Positions 14,636 to 30,147 are shown, counted from the stretch's first letter. The stretch is 32,218 nucleotides of DNA from Candidatus Berkelbacteria bacterium RIFCSPLOWO2_01_FULL_50_28 (GCA_001774395.1 MEZX01000002.1:29628-61845), one strand, 5' to 3'. Notes: generated by a model not told the origin, from the letters alone. Translations and numbers: made by a program.

Positions 14636-14710
14636 GATGGCCCAAAAGATTCTGACGGCAAAAGATACTGTGTTAACTCGGCCTCGCTTGACTTCAAGCC
14701 CAGACGCTAG
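14636..14710 (+). pseudogene. msrB: Orphan 3' remnant of methionine-R-sulfoxide reductase
   Basis: Translates to DGPKDSDGKRYCVNSASLDFKPRR*, matching the MsrB C-terminal DGP..G.RYC(I/V)NS motif. No HLGHVF motif and no start upstream. Confidence 0.8.
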
Positions 14711-17700
14711 GTTTTTTCTGGTGTAGCTGTCTCTCGGTTGTTTTTCCAGATGAGATTAATGCTATCTAAATTGTACGTCGGGCTACAAGAAAACTGACGG
14801 GGGTTGGCAAAGTCGTACTGCTCTCGTCCCTGTTCATCAATCTGTTCGTCCATTGCCCTTTCAAATAAACCACCAGTTCGGTTAGTTCGAATAGTTCCAT
14901 TTGTCGAGACACCGACCATATCAAAATTATTAGTGGCGGCAAATTCTGTTACTACTTGACTTAAACCTCGGTAGATTGAAGCTTCATCGGTCGTTTGTAA
15001 ATAGCCTTGAGCGGGATTAAATGAGGCCGTGAGTATCTTTTTACCATCTGGTTCCGTAAAGTGATGGAGCAATACTAAACCTTGGCAACGCATCGTCTCC
15101 GGATCATGCAAAACCAACTGAATGTAATTTGGCATCTCCCAAATGTTGACGCGCTCAAGTTCAGGTTTTGGGTTGTCTTGGGCAACACAAACTCCTCCAA
15201 CCATTCGTGCGAGGGCACTTTCCTTTGTTTTCGAAAAACTTCCGATGAGTTTTTTGGCTTGCGCTCCAGAGCTTGATTCAAATTGGTCTAAAGACGCTTC
15301 CGTTCGACTCAATCGGGCGTTACCGATTCTGACGCTTTGTTGGGAAAGATAGCTATAATAGCTTTCGGGGCTAAAGTCACCCAAATCTTGCGCCTCTTCA
15401 TAAGCCAGTGAGAGCAGTAACTCATTATCAACCCGAGTCAGAGGGATTGCTTCAGCAGACTCGGTGTCGATAAACTCGCCGAGAACACGATCCGTTGCCT
15501 GGCGACGAGACCTCAGCATACCGTAAACTTGTTTAGTCCGAGATTTGGCTGAAATGCTTTTCTCGGCTCCGAAACGACCAGTCGCCCTCTCATACCGTTC
15601 AATTAGTTTAGCGATACGGGCATTAACTGCTTCTTCACCAAGCTCAGTTCGATAGCTGCCCAATTGCTCCTTGCCGTAAAGACGTTCACCAATCTGTTGA
15701 ACGAAGGCAGGGCTAATCCCAAATTTACCCTGCATTCGATTAATAACGTCTGCCCGATTCGTTTGTTGCGCCTTTTCTTGTCGAGAAACAAAACGTTGTT
15801 GGAAGTAGCTTTCAAGGTCTGGATTACTGGCGACGGCCTGAAAAACGTTACGCAGAGCCTCTTTGCGATGATCAAAGGCTAAAGCGTGGTATTCGGTCAG
15901 TAACGAATAAGTCGGATTAGGAGATTGAGCGCATCGGCTTTCGATCCCAGTAATCGCATTCTGGTGATCACCAAAGGTCAGCAGTGAGTATCGCCAAATT
16001 ATCTCTTCCAAAGCCGTTGCCCCAAGCTCTGCTTCGCCACCGGCCTGAAGCGCAATTAGCACTGCCAGTTTGTTCTCGTTGGTTTCTAGCTGGTTTGCTG
16101 GAAGCAACTCACTCGGAAGAGAAGCTAGCAACTGATCAATTTGAGCATTAAGGCCTTCCGCTAACTGATCCGGACTCTCGGCAGCCAGGGTCTTTAATTC
16201 TTCCGAGAATACGTCAGCTTCAGCTTCGATCGAGGCTCTATCTGCCCCTTCCTTATATTTCACCGAGCCCGCCTCTAAAGTATTGATCACATAAACCTCA
16301 TCTTTTTTAAAAGGTTCTAAGTCTTCCAGACGATCCGGACAATGTGTAACGGTTGTTTCAAAGTCGCCATAGTTTCTGGCGTTATTTTGAAAAACATGGT
16401 GCAGTAATTCACGATAATACGGCTTATCTCTTTGGGTTTGACTCATCGGCTTGTCCCCAAGAGCCCCTTCAAGAAAACTCTGTAACTGGGCAAAATAGAC
16501 CTTTTCAGTATGGTCTTTGCGAGCGAGGAGGTAACCAGCCATTAATTCAGGACCAATTATGCGAAAATGCTTTAAGAATTCTAGAACACTGCCACGGTCA
16601 TCGCGACTGATGATCTCTTTTTTAAGACACTCCCCGTAACCGGAAATTATTTCTTGGGCTGCGTTACCGTACTGGCCCAAGATATTGGCAATAAAATCAA
16701 CATCCTTTTCATTATTGATAAATACCGGAAAATCTTCCTTAATTGCTCGTAGAACTTGACCATTTTTCTTATCAAATAAGAGCGGGCAACGATCGGGCAA
16801 CTTGAGTAACAATTGGGTCTCAGGCTCAAGGTGTCTCGCTAAATAATACTGACGGAGAGTTTCATCCTTAAGAGCATTTTCATCACGAAGAAGAAACCCA
16901 ACTAACCCTTCTTTTTCTAGCTCATCGCAACGTTCTTGAAATTTAGGATCAGAATAGCGAGCTTTAAGGCCGTTGAATTCATCGAAATTATCAAATAACT
17001 GACGACTACCGTTAGAAAGCTCGGTAATAATCACCTCCTTTTCAAGAGAAGTGCATTGAGCCTGGAATTCTTCGTCAGGGAACCGGGCTTTAAGTGTATC
17101 CAGTGCCGAAGGGACAGTTAATAGTAGCCCACCACCAGTTTTCAAATGCTCGATTACCGCGCGGCGTTCTAACTCTACGCAACGCGACTGAAATTCTGGA
17201 TCAGGGAAGTTAGCCTTAAGATTGTCAATTTTTTCCGAGCTTGTAACGAATTCATTGAAGCTATTTTCCAGATAGCTTAAGACCCCCCTCTTGACAATTC
17301 GCTCCAAATGACCTTGAAACTCTTGATCCGGATAACGGGCTTTGAGGCTATCAAATGCTGTTGGATCCCCTAGAAGCTTGAGAAAATCTTTCTGAATGTA
17401 ACTTATGGCGGCGTTCCTCTCTTCTTTAGCTAGTTGAGCCTGAAATTCGGGGTCTGGAAAGCGAGCTTTAACGGCATCGAAGTCTGCCTGAGTAGCTAAG
17501 ATTGTGAAGAAATGGGTATCGATATAGCTAAGGAGAGCTTGTTTTTCGATTTGGGTACATCGCTCTTGAAACTCTGTGTCCTCTGGATAGCGAGCTTTAA
17601 GCGCGTCGATCGTCTCCGCATTGGTGTAAATGCTTGATGAATTCTCGAAAGTTTCAGCTACCTTCTCCTGCTCTAAACGAATACATTGAGCTTGGAATTC

Positions 17701-19089
17701 GGCATCGGGAAATCTAGTTTTAAGACTATCAAAACGTTCAAGATCATAAGACAAACCATATAAGCTAGTATAATTTTCTTTCAGATTGCCAAGTATTGCC
17801 AATCGTTGTAACTCAACTATTTCCTCTCTGCCGACCTTTCCGTTGGCAATGGTCTCCTCGATCATTTTGGTGTAATACACATCCTCACTCAGGAGGACGG
17901 CTTTTCCTCCATCAAGGGTTCGGTTAATTTTCTCTTCCTCCCGTTGATCTCTTTTGTAATGAATAACTCTATGCGGAATCAGTTTATGATCGCCCCAACG
18001 CAGAGTCGTGTTGAAATTTTTTGTCATTGCTTCCCAGGTGGGGGAAACAACATCTTCGTTCCAATCCAGCAATTGTCTCAAACGTCCCTGCATAACCGCT
18101 CGCTCGACAGCGTTTAAATTATTATTATCAAACATTGCCTGTTGCCAGAGAACTTGATAACGATCTTGAGCGAGGCTAAGAAAACGACCGTAAACACCCG
18201 CTACTAGATCACCTGCTAATCGACCATCAGTCTCTGCCAGTGCATACGAACCGCGATCGGGCAGATTGCTAATTCCTCCGCGCTTAAACTTAATTGACGA
18301 AACTTTACTGGTTTTATGATAATCGTCTTTGGCTTTTCTTGATTGACCCCAGGCTCTGGTAAATGGGATCAGGTCTTTGGCACGTTCGGAAGTTGGCCGT
18401 TTATCTCTTGCGAAAAATTCATCATTAACTGTTCGTTTACGGCTCTCGAATATTTCACCAGGTTTGAGCGGCGGTAAACCGAGTTTCAGCATCTCCGCGT
18501 TATCTCGATTCCATTCGGCTTGCCCCATGGCGGCGTAATAACGATTTTCTAAGATTTCTAGCTTAGTTAAGCCACTATCATATTCCCTGACAACCTCTCT
18601 TATTCTTAGGGCTAATTTACTAATATCCTCAGTGGCGTCGACAGCATTCTCGGTTTGAATTTGATCTAACTCTTCCTTGAGAGCAACAAGCTGGGGACGA
18701 AGATTTTCAAGATGTGCTTTGGTTTGTTGCCAGGCTTCCTGTGAACTATCGGCTTCTTTTATGGCCAAAGCCTCATCTAAATTCACTAAAGCGGCCTTTT
18801 GCTCGGTATTGTTTTGGTTGACTACTTCGGAATTATAGTGGATCTCGGGAATAGCAGTGAGGGTAGCAAATATTTCCTTCGAACGTTCAATGATTTGAGC
18901 AACCTCTTGAGAGAGCGTCGGAGGCTTTGGAGATGATTTTTCTTCGTTCTTCTCCAATCCTATCTGGTCGTCTTTTCCTACCGTCGGCTCCATGTTAGTG
19001 GTAGGTTCTATCTCGGGTTTAGGTGGTTCTTCAGTAACCACCACTACTTGATTTTCTACTTCTAAATCAGGACCGGGTCTTTCAGGCAT
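14707..19089 (-). CDS. Large hypothetical protein (1460 aa) with seven ~42-aa internal repeats
   Basis: Long ORF; repeat core DxLKAR(F/Y)PDxEFQ; extended -10 TGaTATTAT 6 nt upstream of ATG. Confidence 0.85.
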   Translation of the reverse strand: MPERPGPDLEVENQVVVVTEEPPKPEIEPTTNMEPTVGKDDQIGLEKNEEKSSPKPPTLSQEVAQIIERSKEIFATLTAIPEIHYNSEVVNQNNTEQKAALVNLDEALAIKEADSSQEAWQQTKAHLENLRPQLVALKEELDQIQTENAVDATEDISKLALRIREVVREYDSGLTKLEILENRYYAAMGQAEWNRDNAEMLKLGLPPLKPGEIFESRKRTVNDEFFARDKRPTSERAKDLIPFTRAWGQSRKAKDDYHKTSKVSSIKFKRGGISNLPDRGSYALAETDGRLAGDLVAGVYGRFLSLAQDRYQVLWQQAMFDNNNLNAVERAVMQGRLRQLLDWNEDVVSPTWEAMTKNFNTTLRWGDHKLIPHRVIHYKRDQREEEKINRTLDGGKAVLLSEDVYYTKMIEETIANGKVGREEIVELQRLAILGNLKENYTSLYGLSYDLERFDSLKTRFPDAEFQAQCIRLEQEKVAETFENSSSIYTNAETIDALKARYPEDTEFQERCTQIEKQALLSYIDTHFFTILATQADFDAVKARFPDPEFQAQLAKEERNAAISYIQKDFLKLLGDPTAFDSLKARYPDQEFQGHLERIVKRGVLSYLENSFNEFVTSSEKIDNLKANFPDPEFQSRCVELERRAVIEHLKTGGGLLLTVPSALDTLKARFPDEEFQAQCTSLEKEVIITELSNGSRQLFDNFDEFNGLKARYSDPKFQERCDELEKEGLVGFLLRDENALKDETLRQYYLARHLEPETQLLLKLPDRCPLLFDKKNGQVLRAIKEDFPVFINNEKDVDFIANILGQYGNAAQEIISGYGECLKKEIISRDDRGSVLEFLKHFRIIGPELMAGYLLARKDHTEKVYFAQLQSFLEGALGDKPMSQTQRDKPYYRELLHHVFQNNARNYGDFETTVTHCPDRLEDLEPFKKDEVYVINTLEAGSVKYKEGADRASIEAEADVFSEELKTLAAESPDQLAEGLNAQIDQLLASLPSELLPANQLETNENKLAVLIALQAGGEAELGATALEEIIWRYSLLTFGDHQNAITGIESRCAQSPNPTYSLLTEYHALAFDHRKEALRNVFQAVASNPDLESYFQQRFVSRQEKAQQTNRADVINRMQGKFGISPAFVQQIGERLYGKEQLGSYRTELGEEAVNARIAKLIERYERATGRFGAEKSISAKSRTKQVYGMLRSRRQATDRVLGEFIDTESAEAIPLTRVDNELLLSLAYEEAQDLGDFSPESYYSYLSQQSVRIGNARLSRTEASLDQFESSSGAQAKKLIGSFSKTKESALARMVGGVCVAQDNPKPELERVNIWEMPNYIQLVLHDPETMRCQGLVLLHHFTEPDGKKILTASFNPAQGYLQTTDEASIYRGLSQVVTEFAATNNFDMVGVSTNGTIRTNRTGGLFERAMDEQIDEQGREQYDFANPRQFSCSPTYNLDSINLIWKNNRETATPEKT

Positions 19090-21076: not shown

Positions 21077-22111
21077 ATGGCTCGAAGGATCTACTACTGG
21101 TTACAGAGAGTGTATCTTTACTGGCGGTCACGTGAGAAACTCTTGATGATTATTCTCGGACTGGTGGTAGTTGTTTCTGCGGTGGTATCTATTAACATCC
21201 AAAGACAGGCTGCCAAGCCAGCGCCGTACGTGAACCCTTATGAGACGCTTGTTGGCGTCGCCCTTTCTCCCAAAAGTTACAAAGGCGAAAAGTTCACGAG
21301 TTTTTTCGACAAAGCCAAAGAAATCGGCAACGCCGTTAGTTGGTCCGGGCCTTGGCAAGATTTTGCTAAATCCAACGGTACTCCTTCAGACATCGCTACG
21401 CTGGCCAAACAAAAGGGCTTTATGCCAATTTACCTCACAGGCCCAACTATCGAAGAGGTGAAGAACGGCGACTATCAAACAGCCATGACCGCTGCGATCG
21501 GTAAATTTGCCGCCACAGAACAGCCAAAATACATCGGCATCGGCCACGAGATCGACCAGCTCTACCTAAGCTCACCCGAGCTACTAAAAAAATACCTGAA
21601 AGCAGCCAAACCAGTAGTCGGCCGTCTTCGCTCCACCTCGGCCAGCGTTAAAATCTTCGCTACCATCCAGTACGAACGGAGTCAGGGCTTGCGAGGTGGC
21701 CTGTTTGGAGGCACCAACGACGAGTCGAAGAGCATTTTGAAGAAGGTCTTGCCACAGTTAGAGATGTTTGATTTTGTCGCCTTCACCACTTACCCTGGGC
21801 TCATTTATAAAACACCCGAGGATTTGCCCGACGATTACTACTCCAAAGTTACTTCGCTGACCTCTAAACCAATTATCTTCACCGAAGTTGGCTGGTCGAG
21901 ATCGGCACCGGAGGAAGGTTACGACGGTAGCGAATCGGCTCAAGCTGAGTTCATCAAAGAATTTCGCCATCAAATGGAGGACATTAAACCGGTCTTACAG
22001 CTTTGGTCGTTCCTGTACCCGCAAAAAGTTAGCTCGGTATTCGAGACTATGAGTTTGCTGGCCACCGACCAAGAAACTTCCCCCGGCTTCGAGGCTTGGA
22101 AAAGGAAGTAA
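21077..22111 (+). CDS. Membrane-anchored clan GH-A-like glycoside hydrolase
   Basis: N-terminal TM; IGIGHEID (candidate acid/base), DFVAFTTYP, KPIIFTEVGW (candidate nucleophile), GSESAQAEF. Confidence 0.7.
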   Translation: MARRIYYWLQRVYLYWRSREKLLMIILGLVVVVSAVVSINIQRQAAKPAPYVNPYETLVGVALSPKSYKGEKFTSFFDKAKEIGNAVSWSGPWQDFAKSNGTPSDIATLAKQKGFMPIYLTGPTIEEVKNGDYQTAMTAAIGKFAATEQPKYIGIGHEIDQLYLSSPELLKKYLKAAKPVVGRLRSTSASVKIFATIQYERSQGLRGGLFGGTNDESKSILKKVLPQLEMFDFVAFTTYPGLIYKTPEDLPDDYYSKVTSLTSKPIIFTEVGWSRSAPEEGYDGSESAQAEFIKEFRHQMEDIKPVLQLWSFLYPQKVSSVFETMSLLATDQETSPGFEAWKRK

Positions 22112-22113
22112 GG

Positions 22114-22206
22114 CTAGCCGTCAATCACTTGCGAGAGCAGTAGTTTCTTCTCTACGAACGCAATTAGTTTACGGGAAGAGACCGCCACGTCGGGGGCGAC
22201 GGAGAC
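22114..22206 (-). pseudogene. ppsA: Duplicated, diverged 3' end of ppsA
   Basis: 83/93 nt identical to 22889-22981. Encodes VSVAPDVAVSSRKLIAFVEKKLLLSQVIDG*. Confidence 0.92.
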
Positions 22207-22265
22207 GTAAGACGGAGGCAGACAGAAGTCCGAGCCAGTATTCCAGTGGTATTTGCCCACAACTT

Positions 22266-22293
22266 AAGAAGCCTACCGATTGGATCGATAGGC
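22266..22293 (-). terminator. Probable terminator of the DUF420-like gene
   Basis: GCCTACCGAT-TGG-ATCGATAGGC hairpin followed by TTCTT on the minus strand. Confidence 0.5.
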
Positions 22294-22328
22294 ATGAGGT
22301 TGAGATCGACGGTGACACGTTAGATCCT

Positions 22329-22712
22329 CTATCTCGGTGCGGCTGTTGTGATCAGCAAAATGCCGGTGATGGTGGTCGGGATCAGCATTACAGCAAAGGT
22401 GATCACCGCTGCCCGATGCCAGACCCGGAAACGATTGCCCGACTGCAGCTTCCAGCCCAAGAGCACCAATACCAGGAAGATGACCCCGGAAGTGATCGCA
22501 AAGGGCAGATGGATAGTCTGTGCGTCCTTGTTGAAGCTGTAGAGGTAGCGCAGCCCCTCTGCGTAGAGCACTGTGGCCACAAAGATCGTAACAGTCACCC
22601 AAGCTCGTAGGACATGCCGTCGTCGCTGGTGGCGCCGGCCGGCGATAGCCGTCCAGATAAAGAAACCAACAAACAAGATCAACAGAGCGACAAAGATGAG
22701 AAGGTACAACAT
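22329..22712 (-). CDS. 4-TM membrane protein, DUF420-like
   Basis: Four hydrophobic helices; His spacing (RRH, IHL, WHR) as in DUF420; SD GGGAG. Confidence 0.65.
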   Translation of the reverse strand: MLYLLIFVALLILFVGFFIWTAIAGRRHQRRRHVLRAWVTVTIFVATVLYAEGLRYLYSFNKDAQTIHLPFAITSGVIFLVLVLLGWKLQSGNRFRVWHRAAVITFAVMLIPTTITGILLITTAAPR

Positions 22713-22888
22713 TTCATAAACTCCCTGGGAAGAATTGTAGCTGAATTATCGGCCAACTACCAGGGTTGGTGCTACAATTCTGACGATGAAATCACGAAAG
22801 TTCTGCGTTGTCTTGTATCTATGGAGGTGTGGCTTTCTTGTTATTCTAGCCGTCGCTAACGACGACCGAAGCGGAGGAGTTTTCAGAG

Positions 22889-25264
22889 CTACGCGTCGAT
22901 TACTTGCGAGAGAAGTAATTTCTTCTCTACGGACGCAATTAGTTTACGGGAGGAGACCGCCACGTCGGGGGCAACAGAGACAGAAGTTGTGCCGGCCTTG
23001 ACCATCGCTTCGGTAATCTCCGGATAAACGCTGGGTGCCTGGCCGCAGATCGAACAGGTAACGTGATGTTTGCGGCAAGTGCGCACAACGTGCAAAATTG
23101 AGTTTAAAACTGCCGGATATCTCTCGTCAAATTCGGCCGCGAGCTTGGAGGAGTCGCGATCAATACCCAGAATAAGTTGGGTTAAGTCGTTGGAGCCGAT
23201 CGATACCCCATCGATTCCTTCTTCGATATAACGCTCTAACTCCAAAACCGTGGAAGGCACTTCCACCATTATCCACAGCTTGAAATCGGCAGACTGCTTA
23301 AGATTGTTTTGGTGCATTAGGTCGCGCACTTTTACAAACTCGTCAACGGTTCGGACAAACGGAATCATTACGTGCAAGTTTTTCAGGTCCAACCCGTCGC
23401 GAATCTGTTTGATCGCTTCGATCTCCAGCGCAAACTCGTCCGGCTCGTTAACATAACGCGACGCGCCGCGGTAGCCGATCATCGGATTGTTCTCCTGCTC
23501 CTCGTACTTGTCACCGCCTTTCAGCGAGCGATACTCGTTAGTTTTGAAGTCGGTGAAGCGGTAAACCACTGGCCGAGGATTGAAAGCCTGGGCGATCGTG
23601 CTGATGCCTTGGCTTAGCTTTTGGACAAATTCTTTTTGGCGGCCCGCGGCGATCATTGCCCTAGGGTGCTCGCCAATTCCAGCGATAATGAATTCAGCAC
23701 GAAGCAACCCGACGCCGTCAACCGGCAGCTGGGCGTACTCCTCGGCTTTGTCTGGCTCGGCCAAATTCAAATAGACCTTTGTAGCGGTAACAGGAACGGT
23801 AGTCATAACACCGCTGGCTAGCAGCTGTCGGCTGTCGGCTTTCAGCTGAATGCCGCTAGCTGATTGCTGATGGCTGATCTCAACTTTGCCTTTATAGACT
23901 TTGCCGGATGCGCCATCAACTGTTACTACTTGGCCCGTTTTGAGCGAGTGGGTAGCAGTACCGGTACCGACAACACAGGGGATTCCCAGCTCGCGCGAAA
24001 CAATCGAGGCATGACTCGTCCTACCCCCTGTATCGGTAACAATGGCGCAGGCGCGCTTCATCGCCGGCACGTAATCCGGGCTCGTCATCTCGGTAACCAG
24101 CACGTCGCCTGCTAAAACTTTATCGATATCTTTGGGCGAGTGGATGATTTTAACGGGCCCCGACGCGCGTCCCACCGAAGCAGCAGCACCGCTTACCAGC
24201 ACGTCGGCTTCGCTGACTGTCGGCTCTCCGCTTGCGGCTTTCGGCTGTTCGGTCAAAGCTGATGGCTGACTGCTGATGGCTGACTGCTGATTACTTCCTT
24301 TGTTTAGGGTTGTAACCGGCCGTGATTGTACCATATAGAAACTGCCGCCCTCGAAAGCCCATTCCATATCTTGCGGCTTGCCGTAATGGGCTTCCACTTG
24401 GGCGCCGATTTGGGCAAGTTTTACGATCTGCTCGTCAGTAAGTTTCTGGCCTTCGAGTTTGTCTTTAGGGGTACTACGATGGACGTCGTTGCCGTCCGGA
24501 CCGCGCACTATCTGCCACTCCTGCTTGCTGACCTCTTTGCTCGCAATGTCCCAGGACTCTTTTTTGACAACGTAATGATCGGGCGTTACGGAGCCGGAAA
24601 CAATCGCTTCGCCCAGCCCCATGCCGGCATCGATAACGATCTTGGAAGTGTCATTTGTTACTGGGTCAACGCTAAACATGATGCCCGAAACTTCACTTTG
24701 AACCATTCTTTGCACCGGTACGGCGATGCCGACTTTCAGGTGATCAAACTTATTAACCGTTCGATAATAAATGGCTCGCGCTTCAAACAGCGACGCCCAG
24801 CATTCGCGAACGGCTTTTATCAAGGCCTTATGCCCTTCGATATTCAAAAACGTCGCCTGCTGGCCGGCAAACGAGGCGTCCGGTAGATCTTCCGCTGTCG
24901 CCGACGAGCGCACCGCCACCGGCCCCTTGCCCATCTCGTCGTAAGCTTTTTCGATCGCACTTATCAAAGCCTTTGGCAACTCCTTCTCTTTGACTGCTTT
25001 CTGCAAAACTAGGGCGATCTGATTCAACTTTTTCGAGGCCTCAGAATCGATCCCTTTCACCTCTTTGGCGATGAACTTATCGATGCGGTGATCGCGGATA
25101 AATTGGAAGTAGGCTTCGCTCGTAATGATGAACCCTTGCGGCACCGGAAGTTTGGCTCGGCTCATCTCGCCGAGATTGGCCCCTTTGCCGCCAACCAGTG
25201 GGATGTCGTCTTTACCGACCTCACTAAACCAAACCAAGGACTTTTTCTTTGCAGAACCTAGCAT
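22889..25264 (-). CDS. ppsA: Phosphoenolpyruvate synthase
   Basis: VGGKGANLGEM, AVRSSATAED..ASFAGQ, QSRPVT, GGRTSHASIVSRELG, GLLRAEF, SIGSNDLTQL, SICGQAP. Start taken at ATG 25264, just after the recX stop. Confidence 0.96.
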   Translation of the reverse strand: MLGSAKKKSLVWFSEVGKDDIPLVGGKGANLGEMSRAKLPVPQGFIITSEAYFQFIRDHRIDKFIAKEVKGIDSEASKKLNQIALVLQKAVKEKELPKALISAIEKAYDEMGKGPVAVRSSATAEDLPDASFAGQQATFLNIEGHKALIKAVRECWASLFEARAIYYRTVNKFDHLKVGIAVPVQRMVQSEVSGIMFSVDPVTNDTSKIVIDAGMGLGEAIVSGSVTPDHYVVKKESWDIASKEVSKQEWQIVRGPDGNDVHRSTPKDKLEGQKLTDEQIVKLAQIGAQVEAHYGKPQDMEWAFEGGSFYMVQSRPVTTLNKGSNQQSAISSQPSALTEQPKAASGEPTVSEADVLVSGAAASVGRASGPVKIIHSPKDIDKVLAGDVLVTEMTSPDYVPAMKRACAIVTDTGGRTSHASIVSRELGIPCVVGTGTATHSLKTGQVVTVDGASGKVYKGKVEISHQQSASGIQLKADSRQLLASGVMTTVPVTATKVYLNLAEPDKAEEYAQLPVDGVGLLRAEFIIAGIGEHPRAMIAAGRQKEFVQKLSQGISTIAQAFNPRPVVYRFTDFKTNEYRSLKGGDKYEEQENNPMIGYRGASRYVNEPDEFALEIEAIKQIRDGLDLKNLHVMIPFVRTVDEFVKVRDLMHQNNLKQSADFKLWIMVEVPSTVLELERYIEEGIDGVSIGSNDLTQLILGIDRDSSKLAAEFDERYPAVLNSILHVVRTCRKHHVTCSICGQAPSVYPEITEAMVKAGTTSVSVAPDVAVSSRKLIASVEKKLLLSQVIDA
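23817..23879. repeat. 7-nt-period array in frame within a ppsA linker
   Basis: GC(T/C) at 23817, 23824, 23831, 23838, 23845, 23852, 23859, 23866, 23873. Confidence 0.85.
24216..24292. repeat. 7-nt-period array in frame within a ppsA linker
   Basis: GCT at 24223, 24230, 24237, 24244, 24258, 24265, 24272, 24279, 24286; includes gctgatg gctgact gctgatg gctgact gctgatt. Confidence 0.85.
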
Positions 25265-25274
25265 TAATTCCAAC

Positions 25275-25733
25275 TTAACTTGTTTGAATCTCTTTGAGTA
25301 GTCGGTAGATGATATTGGGGGCAAAACCGCGACGGCCAAGCAATCCTAAGGCCCGGCGTTTGCGCGTCAGTTCGTCAAGGTTTGACCAACTTCTAATTCG
25401 ACTTTCTAGCAGCTCTCTGGCAACCTCAATTTCGTCATCAGCAGAGATTTGTGAGGTCCACTTTTCGGTCAACTCCCGGGAAAACCCTCGTCGCTTCATC
25501 TCCAAGCAGATGCGATACTTGCCCCGCCGCATTATGGAGAGTCTCGAGTGCACGAAAGATTCGGCGAATTTATCATCGTCGATTAGGCCAACCGCTGCTA
25601 GCCGCTGCAGCGCTTTCTCCACAGCTTCCGGCTCGTAACTTTTGTCTCGCAATCTCTCTCGCAACTCTTTCTCTGTCCGCGCCCGATAACCAAGGAGTTT
25701 CACTGCGTAATCGAAGGCCGACATACTTTTCAT
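25275..25733 (-). CDS. recX: Regulatory protein RecX
   Basis: A.KLL.YRARTEKEL..RL, GLIDDDKFA, G..RI..E.KRRG, L.RRGF; lies downstream of recA. Confidence 0.92.
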   Translation of the reverse strand: MKSMSAFDYAVKLLGYRARTEKELRERLRDKSYEPEAVEKALQRLAAVGLIDDDKFAESFVHSRLSIMRRGKYRICLEMKRRGFSRELTEKWTSQISADDEIEVARELLESRIRSWSNLDELTRKRRALGLLGRRGFAPNIIYRLLKEIQTS

Positions 25734-28801: not shown

Positions 28802-29449
28802 CTACAAGCCGCCGTAGCCGGGCTTAACACAGAGCAGAATAGAATCTCTGTCTTTATCAACTTTAACGTTATTTCCGTTATCAAGAGGTCCGACAATATC
28901 TTTTCCAAGATAGATTGTATCGCCACCTTTTCTGAACCTACCCACGTTTGCTTGATACATTTTTAGGGGCTCTGCTCTTACCTTTTCAATCTTATTCAGA
29001 AGCTCTGCGGAGATTGATAAGCCGTCACTACTGACACGCACTTGGTAGTACAGGTCGTAGCCGAGCACTTGTTTACCAGGATAATTAGCATTATCTACAG
29101 GATGATGTTTCTTCCCGTTAACAACCGGCGTTCCGGCGTAGTCTAGGGCAGTTGTTAACTGATCTCGGGCAAATGGCATAGGGTAAACCGCTTTGAACGT
29201 GGTGTTTTTGGGGCAATCGTAAAGATTCCCCTTACTCGTCACTACTTTCGTGCCATCGTAAGCAACAGTTTTTGCGTCCTGGCCATCACCACCAAAGTTG
29301 CTTCCTACAATGACCGCCCCAAACCCGCCGCCTGTTCCACCAATACCTTCAGCGTTAAGATTCTTGTAGGCGTAGCCGCCGGCAAAACCCAGAATCAAGC
29401 CCAAAACCAGAGCTATTATCGATACCTTCACAATCATCTGTTGTCCCAT
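28802..29449 (-). CDS. N-terminally anchored hypothetical surface protein (paralog B)
   Basis: SD GGAGG fits ATG 29449; TM ending GFAGGYAY; two Cys; motifs colinear with 25856-26563. Confidence 0.8.
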   Translation of the reverse strand: MGQQMIVKVSIIALVLGLILGFAGGYAYKNLNAEGIGGTGGGFGAVIVGSNFGGDGQDAKTVAYDGTKVVTSKGNLYDCPKNTTFKAVYPMPFARDQLTTALDYAGTPVVNGKKHHPVDNANYPGKQVLGYDLYYQVRVSSDGLSISAELLNKIEKVRAEPLKMYQANVGRFRKGGDTIYLGKDIVGPLDNGNNVKVDKDRDSILLCVKPGYGGL

Positions 29450-29487
29450 CCGCCCCTCCATTTATATTAAAACTTTAATAATTCTAC

Positions 29488-29905: not shown

Positions 29906-29978
29906 ATCTGAACTCCCAAATCCGAAGATTTGGGTAAACTGTACATCCAAAACCTCGAGAAATCAATAAACATTAACC

Positions 29979-30147
29979 GAAAACCGGCAAGCGTAACCCA
30001 CAGCAGGTCCGTGCCGCCGGTTTTCTCCACTCCCCGAAGGGAACCGTGCAGGGTATGGGGTGTGGGGAGGTAGGGGCTGCCTCGGAATTAAGCCCCTCCT
30101 CCCCACAAAATATGCGTGGGATTTCCCACGCCAAGAGCACCCCTGCA
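29979..30147 (-). ncRNA. Putative structured RNA or MITE-like element downstream of ftsK
   Basis: Five stems, including a three-way junction and a cUUCGg loop on the minus strand. Confidence 0.4.

What the first reader, a model, noticed from the sequence alone, without database searches (positions are those of the whole stretch)
22114..22981. Diverged duplicate of the ppsA 3' end brackets a one-gene cassette, with no recombinase
The last 31 codons of ppsA, including the stop, occur twice 775 bp apart with 10 mismatches in 93 nt. Seven mismatches are synonymous; the others give A/G at the last residue and S/F. Both tails therefore evolved as coding sequence, so one probably came from a related lineage rather than by local duplication. 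Between them lies a DUF420-like gene with SD and terminator. The fossil resumes similarity (AGAAGT) after a 17-nt insert. Together with the msrB and possible recX fossils, this suggests integrase-free capture of cassettes anchored on conserved gene ends, such as homology-facilitated illegitimate recombination after DNA uptake or an unknown trans-acting recombinase (inference).
Basis: partly seen in the sequence, partly recalled or inferred. Interest (0 to 1): 0.75.

Follow-up and report, generated by a model that had tools for sequence, protein, structure and literature searches.

The report
Recombination scar duplicating the ppsA gene end
A small membrane-protein gene was spliced in behind the PEP synthase gene of an ultra-small groundwater bacterium, bringing a replacement gene end and leaving the old end as a fossil; this is a clean example of a known but little-studied way of gaining genes without an integrase.

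Summary
The last 31 codons of ppsA occur twice, 775 bp apart, at 88% identity over 99 nt, and only twice in the genome.

The downstream copy is the displaced one. Its stop lies 2 nt from the stop of a convergent glycosidase-like gene, as the single ppsA end does in two other genera.

The insert holds a new tail, a 176-nt spacer, a 127-aa four-helix membrane-protein gene and a hairpin. It carries no recombinase.

The two tails are each other's closest relatives (80 of 90 nt, against 49-69 of 90 to 18 relatives). They differ mostly at synonymous sites, and their homology stops at the stop codon.

I read this as import of DNA from a close relative, with one end joined out of register. It resembles homology-facilitated illegitimate or single-crossover recombination, and matches "insertion with long target duplication". 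Confidence is about 0.6.

At least six other gene-end fossils in this 850-kb genome show the same pattern.

The msrB fossil is real. No recX fossil was found. "DUF420-like" is only a weak lead. I found no sign of a dedicated capture system. This scan has found the same architecture before on other DNA.

The parts
22889..25339 (-). ppsA (phosphoenolpyruvate synthase), 816-aa open frame; the true start may lie some 20-30 codons further in
   Evidence: Pfam PPDK_N, PEP-utilizers and PEP-utilizers_C. NCBIfam NF005057 scores 945 bits (cut-off 598) and TIGR01418 scores 895 bits (cut-off 739.75).
22888..22987 (-). Working ppsA tail (last 31 codons and stop, plus the 10-nt block 22978-22987): repeat copy B
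   Evidence: It ends ...SQVIDA*.
22713..22888 (-). 176-nt spacer between the ppsA stop and the cassette start. It holds a hairpin just after the stop and an 11-bp perfect inverted repeat (22731-22741 / 22771-22781). GGGAG lies 8 nt before the ATG.
   Evidence: No Rfam family reached its gathering score. GC 0.46.
22329..22712 (-). Cassette gene: 127-aa four-helix membrane protein with invariant R30, H33, H68, G86, H99 and G117; unnamed family
   Evidence: 34 relatives at E<=0.001; alignment. No Pfam or NCBIfam family over its cut-off. Weak DUF420 / cytochrome b561 leads.
22271..22293 (-). Terminator-like hairpin after the cassette gene (10-bp stem, 3-nt loop, then TTCTTAAGTT)
   Evidence: Not listed by the consensus terminator scan.
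22203..22229 (-). Inner joint of the fossil: the 10-nt block matching ppsA (22220-22229), then a 17-nt indel (22203-22219) made of GTCT-type repeats. It looks like filler at an illegitimate joint.
   Evidence: The reading as a joint is inference.
22114..22206 (-). Fossil ppsA tail (30 codons and stop, ...SQVIDG*, with F for the universally conserved S): repeat copy A, in the ancestral position
   Evidence: The open frame around it is only 49 codons.
21077..22111 (+). Convergent glycosidase-like gene (344 aa) whose stop lies 2 nt from the fossil's stop; the old neighbour of ppsA
   Evidence: Weak Pfam Glyco_hydro_cc match below cut-off. Orthologues directly abut the single ppsA end in G011 (76% identity over 294 aa, 4 nt between stops) and G013 (42% over 288 aa, 1 nt).
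14636..14707 (+). MsrB C-terminal fossil (last 23-24 codons), convergent on the end of the 1460-aa ORF. G000 has no intact msrB in the assembly. It belongs to the same variable region but is a different kind of remnant.
   Evidence: tblastn with relatives' MsrB gives E 1e-7 to 2e-5. The only PF01641 match in the genome covers profile positions 94-116 and is below cut-off.

Best explanation
This is a recombination scar, not a machine.

An ancestor of this genome had ppsA ending tail-to-tail against the glycosidase-like gene. DNA from a close relative, with different content downstream of ppsA, was taken up and recombined in. In that relative, ppsA was followed by a spacer, the 127-aa membrane-protein gene and its terminator.

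One end of the incoming DNA was resolved by homology inside or beyond ppsA. The other end was joined illegitimately and out of register, at about codon -34 of the resident ppsA.

The result is a net 775-bp insertion. ppsA now carries one allele of the tail. The other allele is stranded as a fossil that still abuts the old neighbour.

The mirror image is equally possible: the glycosidase side may be the import, carrying a passenger piece of the donor's ppsA.

Shown: the anatomy, the ancestral context of the fossil, the close kinship of the two tails, the coding-type divergence, the absence of a recombinase, and the presence of uptake and recombination genes.

Inferred: the import itself, its direction, and the type of joint (homology-facilitated illegitimate recombination with a duplication outcome, or single-crossover integration of a circularised fragment).
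For: (1) The fossil's stop is 2 nt from the stop of the convergent gene 21077-22111. The single ppsA end has the same neighbour in G011 (4 nt between stops) and G013 (1 nt).

(2) The two tails share 80 of 90 nt. Each shares 49-69 of 90 nt with the 18 relatives listed. Both have VSSRK where all 16 other family tails have STRK. The insert's GC (0.518) is close to the genome's (0.498).

(3) There are 9 synonymous against 3 replacement differences, with dS 0.48 and dN/dS 0.10. P is 0.012-0.026 under local duplication with a neutral fossil. The 93-nt body has no indel.

(4) Homology ends at the stop codon. This is expected if two lineages differ in what follows ppsA. It would be a coincidence for an arbitrary target duplication.

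(5) The cassette family occurs in only 2 of 162 genomes of the class, G000 and G001. In both it lies within 2 kb downstream of ppsA on the same strand. A donor with ppsA followed by this gene is therefore plausible.

(6) The ppsA downstream neighbour differs widely among 16 other family loci. I count about ten kinds from the listings. recX upstream is kept in 15 of them at E<1e-8.

(7) Other gene-end fossils in G000 differ from the working copy mainly at synonymous sites or by in-frame indels. ftsW: 14 synonymous, 3 replacement. dnaJ: 7 and 1. ligA: 10.5 and 9.5. Also the HisRS-like tail, the der head and the eno head. Fossils in the expected orientation number 7, against 1 in the control orientation.

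(8) comEC, dprA and recA are present.

(9) Duplications of 109-950 bp of the homologous segment are the documented outcome of single-crossover integration in E. coli (PMC3240628, passages read). Insertion with long target duplication and no mobility gene is documented, mostly in competent species (PMC2853133, passages read).
Against: No donor or empty-site genome of the same genus is available. G000 is the only member of its genus among those held. A degenerate pattern for the tail found nothing in metagenome contigs. The cassette protein has no close relative in the species-representative genomes.

The synonymous excess rests on 10-12 differences. It weakens to about P 0.06-0.07 if mutation is strongly transition-biased (my hand estimate).

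The other fossils were found by protein similarity, which favours conserved copies. Their synonymous bias is therefore partly ascertainment.

Canonical homology-facilitated illegitimate recombination gives a deletion in the recipient, not a duplication (PMC3240628, introduction).

The longest identical blocks between the tails are only 19-20 nt, so a RecA crossover inside the repeat is unlikely. The crossover must then lie at its edge.

Uptake of DNA by this organism has not been shown.
Confidence: 0.6

Rival explanations
1. [quoted passage not shown] Both tails would then descend from the resident gene, and all divergence would have arisen afterwards.
For: The architecture meets the published description: direct repeats over 30 bp, a small insert and no mobility genes (PMC2853133, passages read). 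The two tails are each other's nearest relatives. Short cargo-free end duplications exist in this genome (eno head with 106-nt spacing and 94.6% identity; ftsW with 77-nt spacing). The fossil shows decay: S to F at an otherwise invariant residue and a 17-nt indel at its edge.
Against: A neutral fossil should gather more replacement than synonymous changes. Observed are 3 against 9 (P 0.012-0.026). There is no indel in 93 nt despite dS 0.48, in a genome that is about 90% coding. The repeat ends exactly at the stop codon. The short ftsW and der duplicates are near saturation at synonymous sites with the protein sequence kept, which local duplication cannot give.
Confidence: 0.2
2. Remnant of a site-specific integrative element that targets the ppsA 3' end and supplies a replacement tail in its attachment site. 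It would have lost its integrase, or be mobilised in trans (a CIME-like element).
For: Gene 3'-end duplication with an element-supplied tail is the classic signature of such elements (recalled, not read here). Differences spread over the whole repeat fit a crossover at its 5' edge. The genome encodes two large serine recombinases and one tyrosine recombinase elsewhere.
Against: No recombinase lies in the 672 non-repeated bases or in the 29 window ORFs scanned. The repeat occurs only twice in the genome. It was not found twice in any of the 31 other ppsA loci screened with 1.5-kb flanks, nor in metagenome contigs. Six or more other end fossils at unrelated genes, some with no cargo, would each need their own integrase. 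Five junctions share no motif.
Confidence: 0.12
3. A dedicated but unknown cassette-capture system, with a trans-acting recombinase that recognises conserved gene ends.
For: End fossils recur in the expected orientation (7 against 1). Small single-gene inserts lie at the ppsA, ligA and dnaJ ends.
Against: The junctions share no sequence or structure. Repeat lengths (about 43-100 nt) and spacings (77-1505 nt) vary widely. Some duplications carry no cargo. The divergent alleles point to ordinary import from relatives.
Confidence: 0.05
4. Assembly chimera of two co-existing strains with different ppsA neighbours.
For: The genome comes from metagenomes, and the two tails look like alleles.
Against: Independent Logan contigs from other samples cover the fossil-to-cassette joint (X6 record 18, X9 record 25) and the cassette-to-ppsA joint (X6 record 19) with 0 differences. 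No alternative joints or loose ends appear at the repeat. Only 10 nt are shared at the inner joint, too few to mislead an assembler.
Confidence: 0.03

Closest known systems
Insertion with long target duplication (Furuta, Abe & Kobayashi 2010, PMC2853133, passages read; Nobusato et al. 2000 known only as cited there and in earlier notes)
   Same: A small gene block lies between direct repeats far longer than transposon target duplications. The repeat is single-copy where the insert is absent. No integrase or transposase is present. The published cases occur mostly in naturally competent species, and the mechanism is unknown.
   Different: The cargo here is a small membrane-protein gene, not a restriction-modification system. 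The repeats are 88% identical with coding-type divergence, where the published cases are nearly identical (for example 44/46 and 417/423). The empty site is seen only in other genera, not within the species.
Homology-facilitated illegitimate recombination in natural transformation (as summarised in PMC3240628, introduction read; the primary papers on Streptococcus, Acinetobacter and Pseudomonas are recalled)
   Same: Foreign DNA is integrated with homology on one side and an illegitimate joint on the other. No dedicated recombinase is needed. Uptake genes are present.
   Different: The canonical product deletes recipient DNA of a size similar to the insert. Here the joint falls inside the homologous stretch and gives a duplication. 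Microhomology at the joint cannot be read without the parental sequences.
Single-crossover (Campbell-type) integration of a circular molecule carrying a truncated homologous fragment (PMC3240628, results read: lacZ duplications of 109-950 bp in 56 of 60 clones)
   Same: The insert is flanked by a duplication of the homologous segment, of about the same length.
   Different: Here the copies differ along their whole length, so a crossover would have to sit at the very edge. A 775-bp circle is hypothetical.
Integrative elements and cis-mobilisable elements inserted in the 3' ends of housekeeping genes
   Same: The gene end is duplicated, with a replacement tail at one side and a displaced pseudo-tail at the other.
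   Different: No integrase, no second copy of the site anywhere, and a tiny single-gene cargo. Similar scars occur at many unrelated genes in the same genome.
Minimal mobile elements of Neisseria (recalled, not read)
   Same: Accessory genes are exchanged between conserved flanking genes by transformation and recombination, with no mobility genes.
   Different: Those exchanges use homology on both sides and leave no duplicated gene end.

Membership tests
Insertion with long target duplication (criteria of PMC2853133) | Direct repeats longer than 30 bp flank the insert | tested here: met
   99 nt at 88% identity, spacing 775.
Insertion with long target duplication (criteria of PMC2853133) | The repeated sequence is single-copy at the same site in a genome without the insert | tested here: inconclusive
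   A single tail abuts the same convergent gene in G011 and G013. These are other genera; no same-species or same-genus genome is held.
Insertion with long target duplication (criteria of PMC2853133) | No other mobile element or mobility gene; insert under 20 kb | tested here: met
   672 non-repeated bases with one ORF. No recombinase family in the 29 window ORFs scanned. The nearest recombinase hits are 147 kb away or on other contigs.
Insertion with long target duplication (criteria of PMC2853133) | Both repeat copies derive from the target (near-identical repeats) | tested here: inconclusive
   88% identity, 9 synonymous against 3 replacement differences, P 0.012-0.026 against in-situ divergence. 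This leans against the feature but rests on few sites.
Homology-facilitated illegitimate recombination | Incoming DNA from another lineage | tested here: inconclusive
   Coding-type divergence of the tails, and homology ending at the stop codon. No donor was found.
Homology-facilitated illegitimate recombination | Illegitimate joint with 3-10 bp microhomology | not testable with these tools
   Parental sequences are unknown. A 17-nt filler-like indel sits at the inner joint.
Homology-facilitated illegitimate recombination | Deletion of recipient DNA at the joint | tested here: not met
   About 100 nt of recipient DNA is duplicated, not deleted. The definition is as given in PMC3240628.
Homology-facilitated illegitimate recombination | DNA-uptake and RecA machinery in the host | tested here: met
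   comEC 167.8 bits, dprA 250.8 bits and recA 452.9 bits, all over their cut-offs. Activity is not shown.
Site-specific integrative element / CIME | Integrase within the element, or a cognate one acting in trans | tested here: not met
   None in the insert or window. A link to the three recombinases elsewhere cannot be tested.
Site-specific integrative element / CIME | The same attachment repeat recurs with related elements in other genomes | tested here: not met
   Two copies only in G000. No second tail in 31 other ppsA loci, nor in wider stretches of G001 and G011. 0 metagenome matches.
Integron gene cassette | IntI-type integrase and attI next to the array; attC at the cassette's 3' end | tested here: not met
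   The only PF00589 hit lies 147 kb away. attC was not modelled; the 3' hairpin is a plain 10-bp stem.
DUF420 (PF04238), for the cassette protein | Match to the Pfam model over its gathering score | tested here: not met
   No DUF420 hit at E<=1 for the protein. 1 of 17 family members hits at E 3.7e-4. The Atlas lists a DUF420 cluster at rank 15, score 0.85.
Phosphoenolpyruvate synthase (PpsA) | Equivalog models over their cut-offs, and the three-domain architecture | tested here: met
   NF005057 945 bits against 598; TIGR01418 895 bits against 739.75. Three Pfam domains.

The most novel reading that the evidence does not exclude
In this ultra-small (CPR-type) lineage, which has hardly any mobile elements, import of relatives' DNA with out-of-register joints at gene ends may be the routine way accessory genes are gained and swapped. 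No recombinase would be needed. Each event would leave an allelic gene-end fossil. The seven or more fossils in 850 kb would then be a readable record of transformation-driven gene gain, with ppsA's tail-to-tail junction as a family-wide hotspot.
Probability: 0.3. Interest if true: 0.6.

Novelty: new member of a known kind. Interest (0 to 1): 0.4.

Why it matters
Ultra-small bacteria carry few transposons, phages or integrases, yet their gene content varies between close relatives. How they gain genes is poorly documented.

This locus shows the anatomy of one such gain at base resolution. It has a replacement gene end, a displaced fossil still touching the old neighbour, and a joint with filler-like sequence.

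The same genome holds several more scars whose two copies differ like alleles of separate lineages. If that generalises, gene-end fossils give a simple, countable marker of recombinase-free import. The marker could be surveyed across genomes and tested in the transformable Saccharibacteria model (PMC10633639, seen as a search listing and abstract start only).

On its own, the finding is an instance of a phenomenon already in print for restriction-modification genes. This scan has also met it repeatedly on other DNA.

Tried and rejected
Stacked third tail in the spacer: the 9-nt match GACGGCTAG is reached by 221 of 2000 shuffles. No other alignment of either tail to the spacer or the post-cassette stretch beat the shuffles.

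recX fossil: the best non-self match in the window has E 0.37, and there is none elsewhere in the genome at E<=1.

RNA family in the spacer or insert: one sub-threshold Rfam hit only (19.5 bits against a gathering score of 49.8). Folds of the spacer and the post-cassette stretch are not unusual (z -0.39 and -1.44).

Same-clade relatives in metagenome contigs: a degenerate pattern coding PDVAVSSRKLIA found 0 stretches.

Close relatives of the cassette protein: only itself among 90% clusters, seen on 17 contigs. There were 166 pattern matches in species-representative genomes, but none was confirmed.

Second ppsA tails in relatives: none in 31 other loci with 1.5-kb flanks at E<=0.01. None in 14 kb of G001 or 13 kb of G011; the best non-self hits were E 0.02 and 0.36.

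Shared motif at five fossil junctions: one 8-mer shared by two junctions, nothing more.

Excision or empty-site variants: no joint across the cassette in the contigs of 4 runs. Contigs drop rare variants, so this says little.

Polarising the ten differences with outgroups: both tails are equally distant from all relatives, so this is uninformative.

C1:17495-17881 (DUF4430) 'fossil': it may be the end of a neighbouring paralogue. I counted it but it is ambiguous.

One control-orientation hit (C2:196241-196321) was not examined further.
Full report
**The observation**

The window's minus strand carries an 816-codon open frame, 22889-25339. It is a phosphoenolpyruvate synthase: it has the three Pfam domains, and two NCBIfam equivalog models score well over their cut-offs.

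Its last 31 codons with the stop occur a second time 775 bp downstream. The repeat finder reports one two-copy family, 22113-22211 and 22888-22986, 99 nt at 88% identity. MAFFT gives the same picture. The whole 850,026-base genome holds exactly these two copies.

In frame, the 30 codons before the stop differ at 10 nt:
- seven single synonymous changes;
- one S/F replacement;
- two changes in the last codon, giving A/G.

A further 10-nt block matches with an offset of 17 nt.

**What lies between and around the copies**

Read in the sense of ppsA, the order is as follows.
- A 176-nt spacer with two hairpins.
- A 127-codon ORF (22329-22712) with GGGAG 8 nt before its ATG.
- A 10-bp-stem hairpin at 22271-22293, followed by a T-rich run.
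- About 40 further bases.
- The 10-nt block, the 17-nt indel and the fossil tail.

The fossil's stop codon lies 2 nt from the stop of a convergent 344-codon glycosidase-like gene (21077-22111).

No recombinase family was hit among the 29 window ORFs scanned. In the whole genome there is one tyrosine recombinase 147 kb away and two large serine recombinases on other contigs.

**The assembly is sound at both joints**

In Logan contigs of an unrelated soil run (X6), one contig covers 21857-22603 and another covers 22585-23978. In run X9, a contig covers 21657-22229. All three show no differences. No contig joins across the cassette.

**Which copy is the old one**

I searched 40 related genomes; 33 have a ppsA match. 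I screened 31 ppsA loci from 30 of those genomes, and none holds a second tail.

In G011 and G013, which belong to two other genera of the family, the single ppsA end abuts the orthologue of the same glycosidase-like gene. The stops are 4 nt and 1 nt apart.

The downstream copy in G000 therefore sits in the ancestral context. The working tail, spacer, ORF and hairpin are the added DNA. The mirror reading, in which the glycosidase side was imported with a passenger tail, cannot be excluded.

The fossil shows decay: F replaces an S that is invariant in all 28 relatives' tails listed. It also keeps the family-typical ...VIDG end, where the working tail ends in A.

**Where the second tail came from**

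The two tails share 80 of 90 nt. Either one shares only 49-69 of 90 nt with the 18 relatives listed. Both carry VSSRK where all 16 other family tails have STRK. The two alleles are thus close kin, closer than any genome held.

A Nei-Gojobori count over 31 codons gives 9 synonymous and 3 replacement differences, with dS 0.48 and dN/dS 0.10.
- Suppose both copies came from the resident gene and the fossil then drifted. So few replacements would have P 0.012-0.026.
- By my hand estimate, P is about 0.06-0.07 if mutation is strongly transition-biased.

Two further points agree with a foreign origin.
- The 93-nt body has no indel, in a genome that is about 90% coding.
- Homology stops exactly at the stop codon. 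This is what two lineages with different genes after ppsA would give. It would be a coincidence for an arbitrary target duplication.

The evidence is suggestive, not decisive.

**The cassette gene**

The protein has no Pfam or NCBIfam family over its cut-off. It does have 34 relatives of about 125-130 aa in the representative library.

An alignment of 17 of these shows four hydrophobic helices and invariant R30, H33, H68, G86, H99 and G117.
- no DUF420 hit for this protein at E<=1;
- 1 of 17 members hits DUF420, at E 3.7e-4;
- the protein atlas shows DUF420 and cytochrome b561 clusters only at scores 0.85 and 0.82.

Three invariant histidines in membrane helices would fit a haem-binding protein. 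That is inference.

Within the class, the family was found in 2 of 162 genomes, G000 and G001. In both it lies within 2 kb downstream of ppsA on the same strand. A donor lineage with ppsA followed by this gene is therefore plausible.

**A hotspot**

Among 16 other family loci, the gene just after ppsA is of about ten different kinds by my count from the listings. They include msrB, the glycosidase-like gene, a PepSY protein, a dehydrogenase neighbourhood and several orphans. Upstream, recX is kept in 15 of them at E<1e-8, and SIMPL recurs further downstream in six.

Window 14636-14707 encodes the last 23-24 residues of MsrB, at E 1e-7 to 2e-5 against relatives. In those relatives msrB is often the convergent neighbour of ppsA. 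It is the only trace of msrB in this assembly, so it is a remnant of a lost gene and not a duplicate.

No recX fossil was found, and no third stacked tail.

**The same kind of scar elsewhere in the genome**

I ran a tblastn scan with the first and last 40-45 residues of 792 ORFs against their flanks. It finds end fossils outside genes mainly in the orientation expected for such scars.
- Expected orientation: five tails downstream (ppsA, ligA, dnaJ-like, ftsW, and an ambiguous DUF4430 gene) and two heads upstream (eno, der).
- Control orientations: one.
- A HisRS-like tail scores just below the second scan's threshold.

Some of these flank cargo: a NUDIX gene behind ligA, and a reverse transcriptase behind dnaJ.

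Others have no cargo and a spacing of only 77-112 nt.

Their differences from the working copies are again coding-type:
- ftsW: 14 synonymous against 3 replacement changes in 18 codons, with both copies ending in ATGA onto murG;
- dnaJ: 7 against 1;
- ligA: 10.5 against 9.5, with one stop;
- the HisRS-like tail: in-frame indels;
- the der head: nearly saturated at synonymous sites across the P-loop.

These were found by protein similarity, which favours conserved copies, so the bias is partly ascertainment. Even so, a 77-nt-spaced copy with saturated synonymous sites cannot be a drifting local duplicate.

Five junctions share no motif.

**Mechanism**

The best reading is import of DNA from close relatives. 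One end would be resolved by homology. The other would be joined illegitimately and out of register, so that donor and recipient alleles of a gene end lie side by side. Only joints that leave an intact gene survive, which is why the fossils sit at gene ends.

comEC, dprA and recA are present. Natural competence has been shown for Saccharibacteria (PMC10633639, seen as a search listing and abstract start only).

In print:
- Homology-facilitated illegitimate recombination normally deletes recipient DNA (PMC3240628, introduction read).
- Duplications of 109-950 bp of the homologous segment come from single-crossover integration of circular molecules (PMC3240628, results read).
- "Insertion with long target duplication" describes the same architecture for restriction-modification genes, with no mobility gene and mostly in competent species. 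Its mechanism is unknown (PMC2853133, passages read).

The present case differs in its cargo and in having diverged, allele-like repeats.

**Rivals**

- In-situ target duplication, or tandem duplication plus a later insertion (0.2). The synonymous excess and the stop-codon boundary disfavour it.
- A decayed integrative element or CIME (0.12). There is no integrase and no recurrence of the site, and there are many unrelated scars.
- A dedicated unknown capture system (0.05). No shared signal was found.
- An assembly chimera (0.03). The independent contigs contradict it.

**Verdict**

This is a clear new member of a known, understudied kind of recombinase-free insertion. Earlier notes of this scan describe the same architecture on other DNA, including a Patescibacteria MurE tail and the dnaJ site of this very genome.

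One of those notes calls the organism Berkelbacteria. I did not verify the name.

Noticed in passing
window 14636-14707 (+): C-terminal 23-24 codons of MsrB survive between the subtilase gene and the end of the 1460-aa ORF. No intact msrB is present in the 92.8%-complete assembly. In several relatives msrB is the convergent neighbour of ppsA.
   Followed up: partly
G000 C2:402017-402150 (L046): The ftsW tail is duplicated 77 nt downstream, just before murG. 17 of 57 nt differ but only 2 of 18 residues do, and both copies end in ATGA. It looks like an allele from a diverged lineage, with no cargo.
   Followed up: partly
G000 C2:293139-293713 (L044) and C3:20670-22217 (L045): A ligA tail fossil lies behind a NUDIX gene. 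A dnaJ-like tail fossil lies behind a 323-aa reverse transcriptase, next to topoisomerase IB. Both have the same architecture as the ppsA site.
   Followed up: partly
G000 C2:522834-522995 (L049) and C2:627435-627670 (L050): Duplicated gene heads lie just upstream of eno (19 codons, 4 differences, 3 of them synonymous, 106-nt spacing) and of der (P-loop region, near-saturated synonymous change).
   Followed up: partly
G004:C3, G014:C4, G032:C1 (L029, L028, L031): ppsA reads as one open frame of 1211-1244 aa. The G000 protein matches in two blocks (about residues 7-446 and 441-816) that lie some 1.2 kb apart. This is probably an intein near the phospho-histidine domain.
   Followed up: no
window about 29974-30121, and more than 20 places on C1-C3: A dispersed repeat family of about 90-190 nt at 72-97% identity, in both orientations. 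One copy lies between ORF 28802-29461 and ftsK.
   Followed up: no
window 16937-17732: The 1460-aa ORF (14707-19089, minus strand, no Pfam family, GC 0.446) contains repeats with a 126-nt period.
   Followed up: no
window 22612-22819, run X11: A 2025 freshwater run holds a 151-nt contig identical at 150 of 151 positions to the cassette start plus spacer. It has a loose end at 22612, inside the cassette ORF. The ppsA pieces in that run are only about 82% alike.
   Followed up: no
window 23816-23877 and 24208-24297: Short repeats with a 14-nt period lie inside ppsA, on either side of the mobile phospho-histidine domain. They read as Ser/Ala/Gln-rich linkers.
   Followed up: no
G000 C2:4950-6169 and C3:51366-52577: Two more unique direct-repeat pairs (62 nt at 90% and 50 nt at 96%, spacings 1159 and 1162) bracket about one gene each. 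One copy of each pair lies just past a gene end.
   Followed up: no
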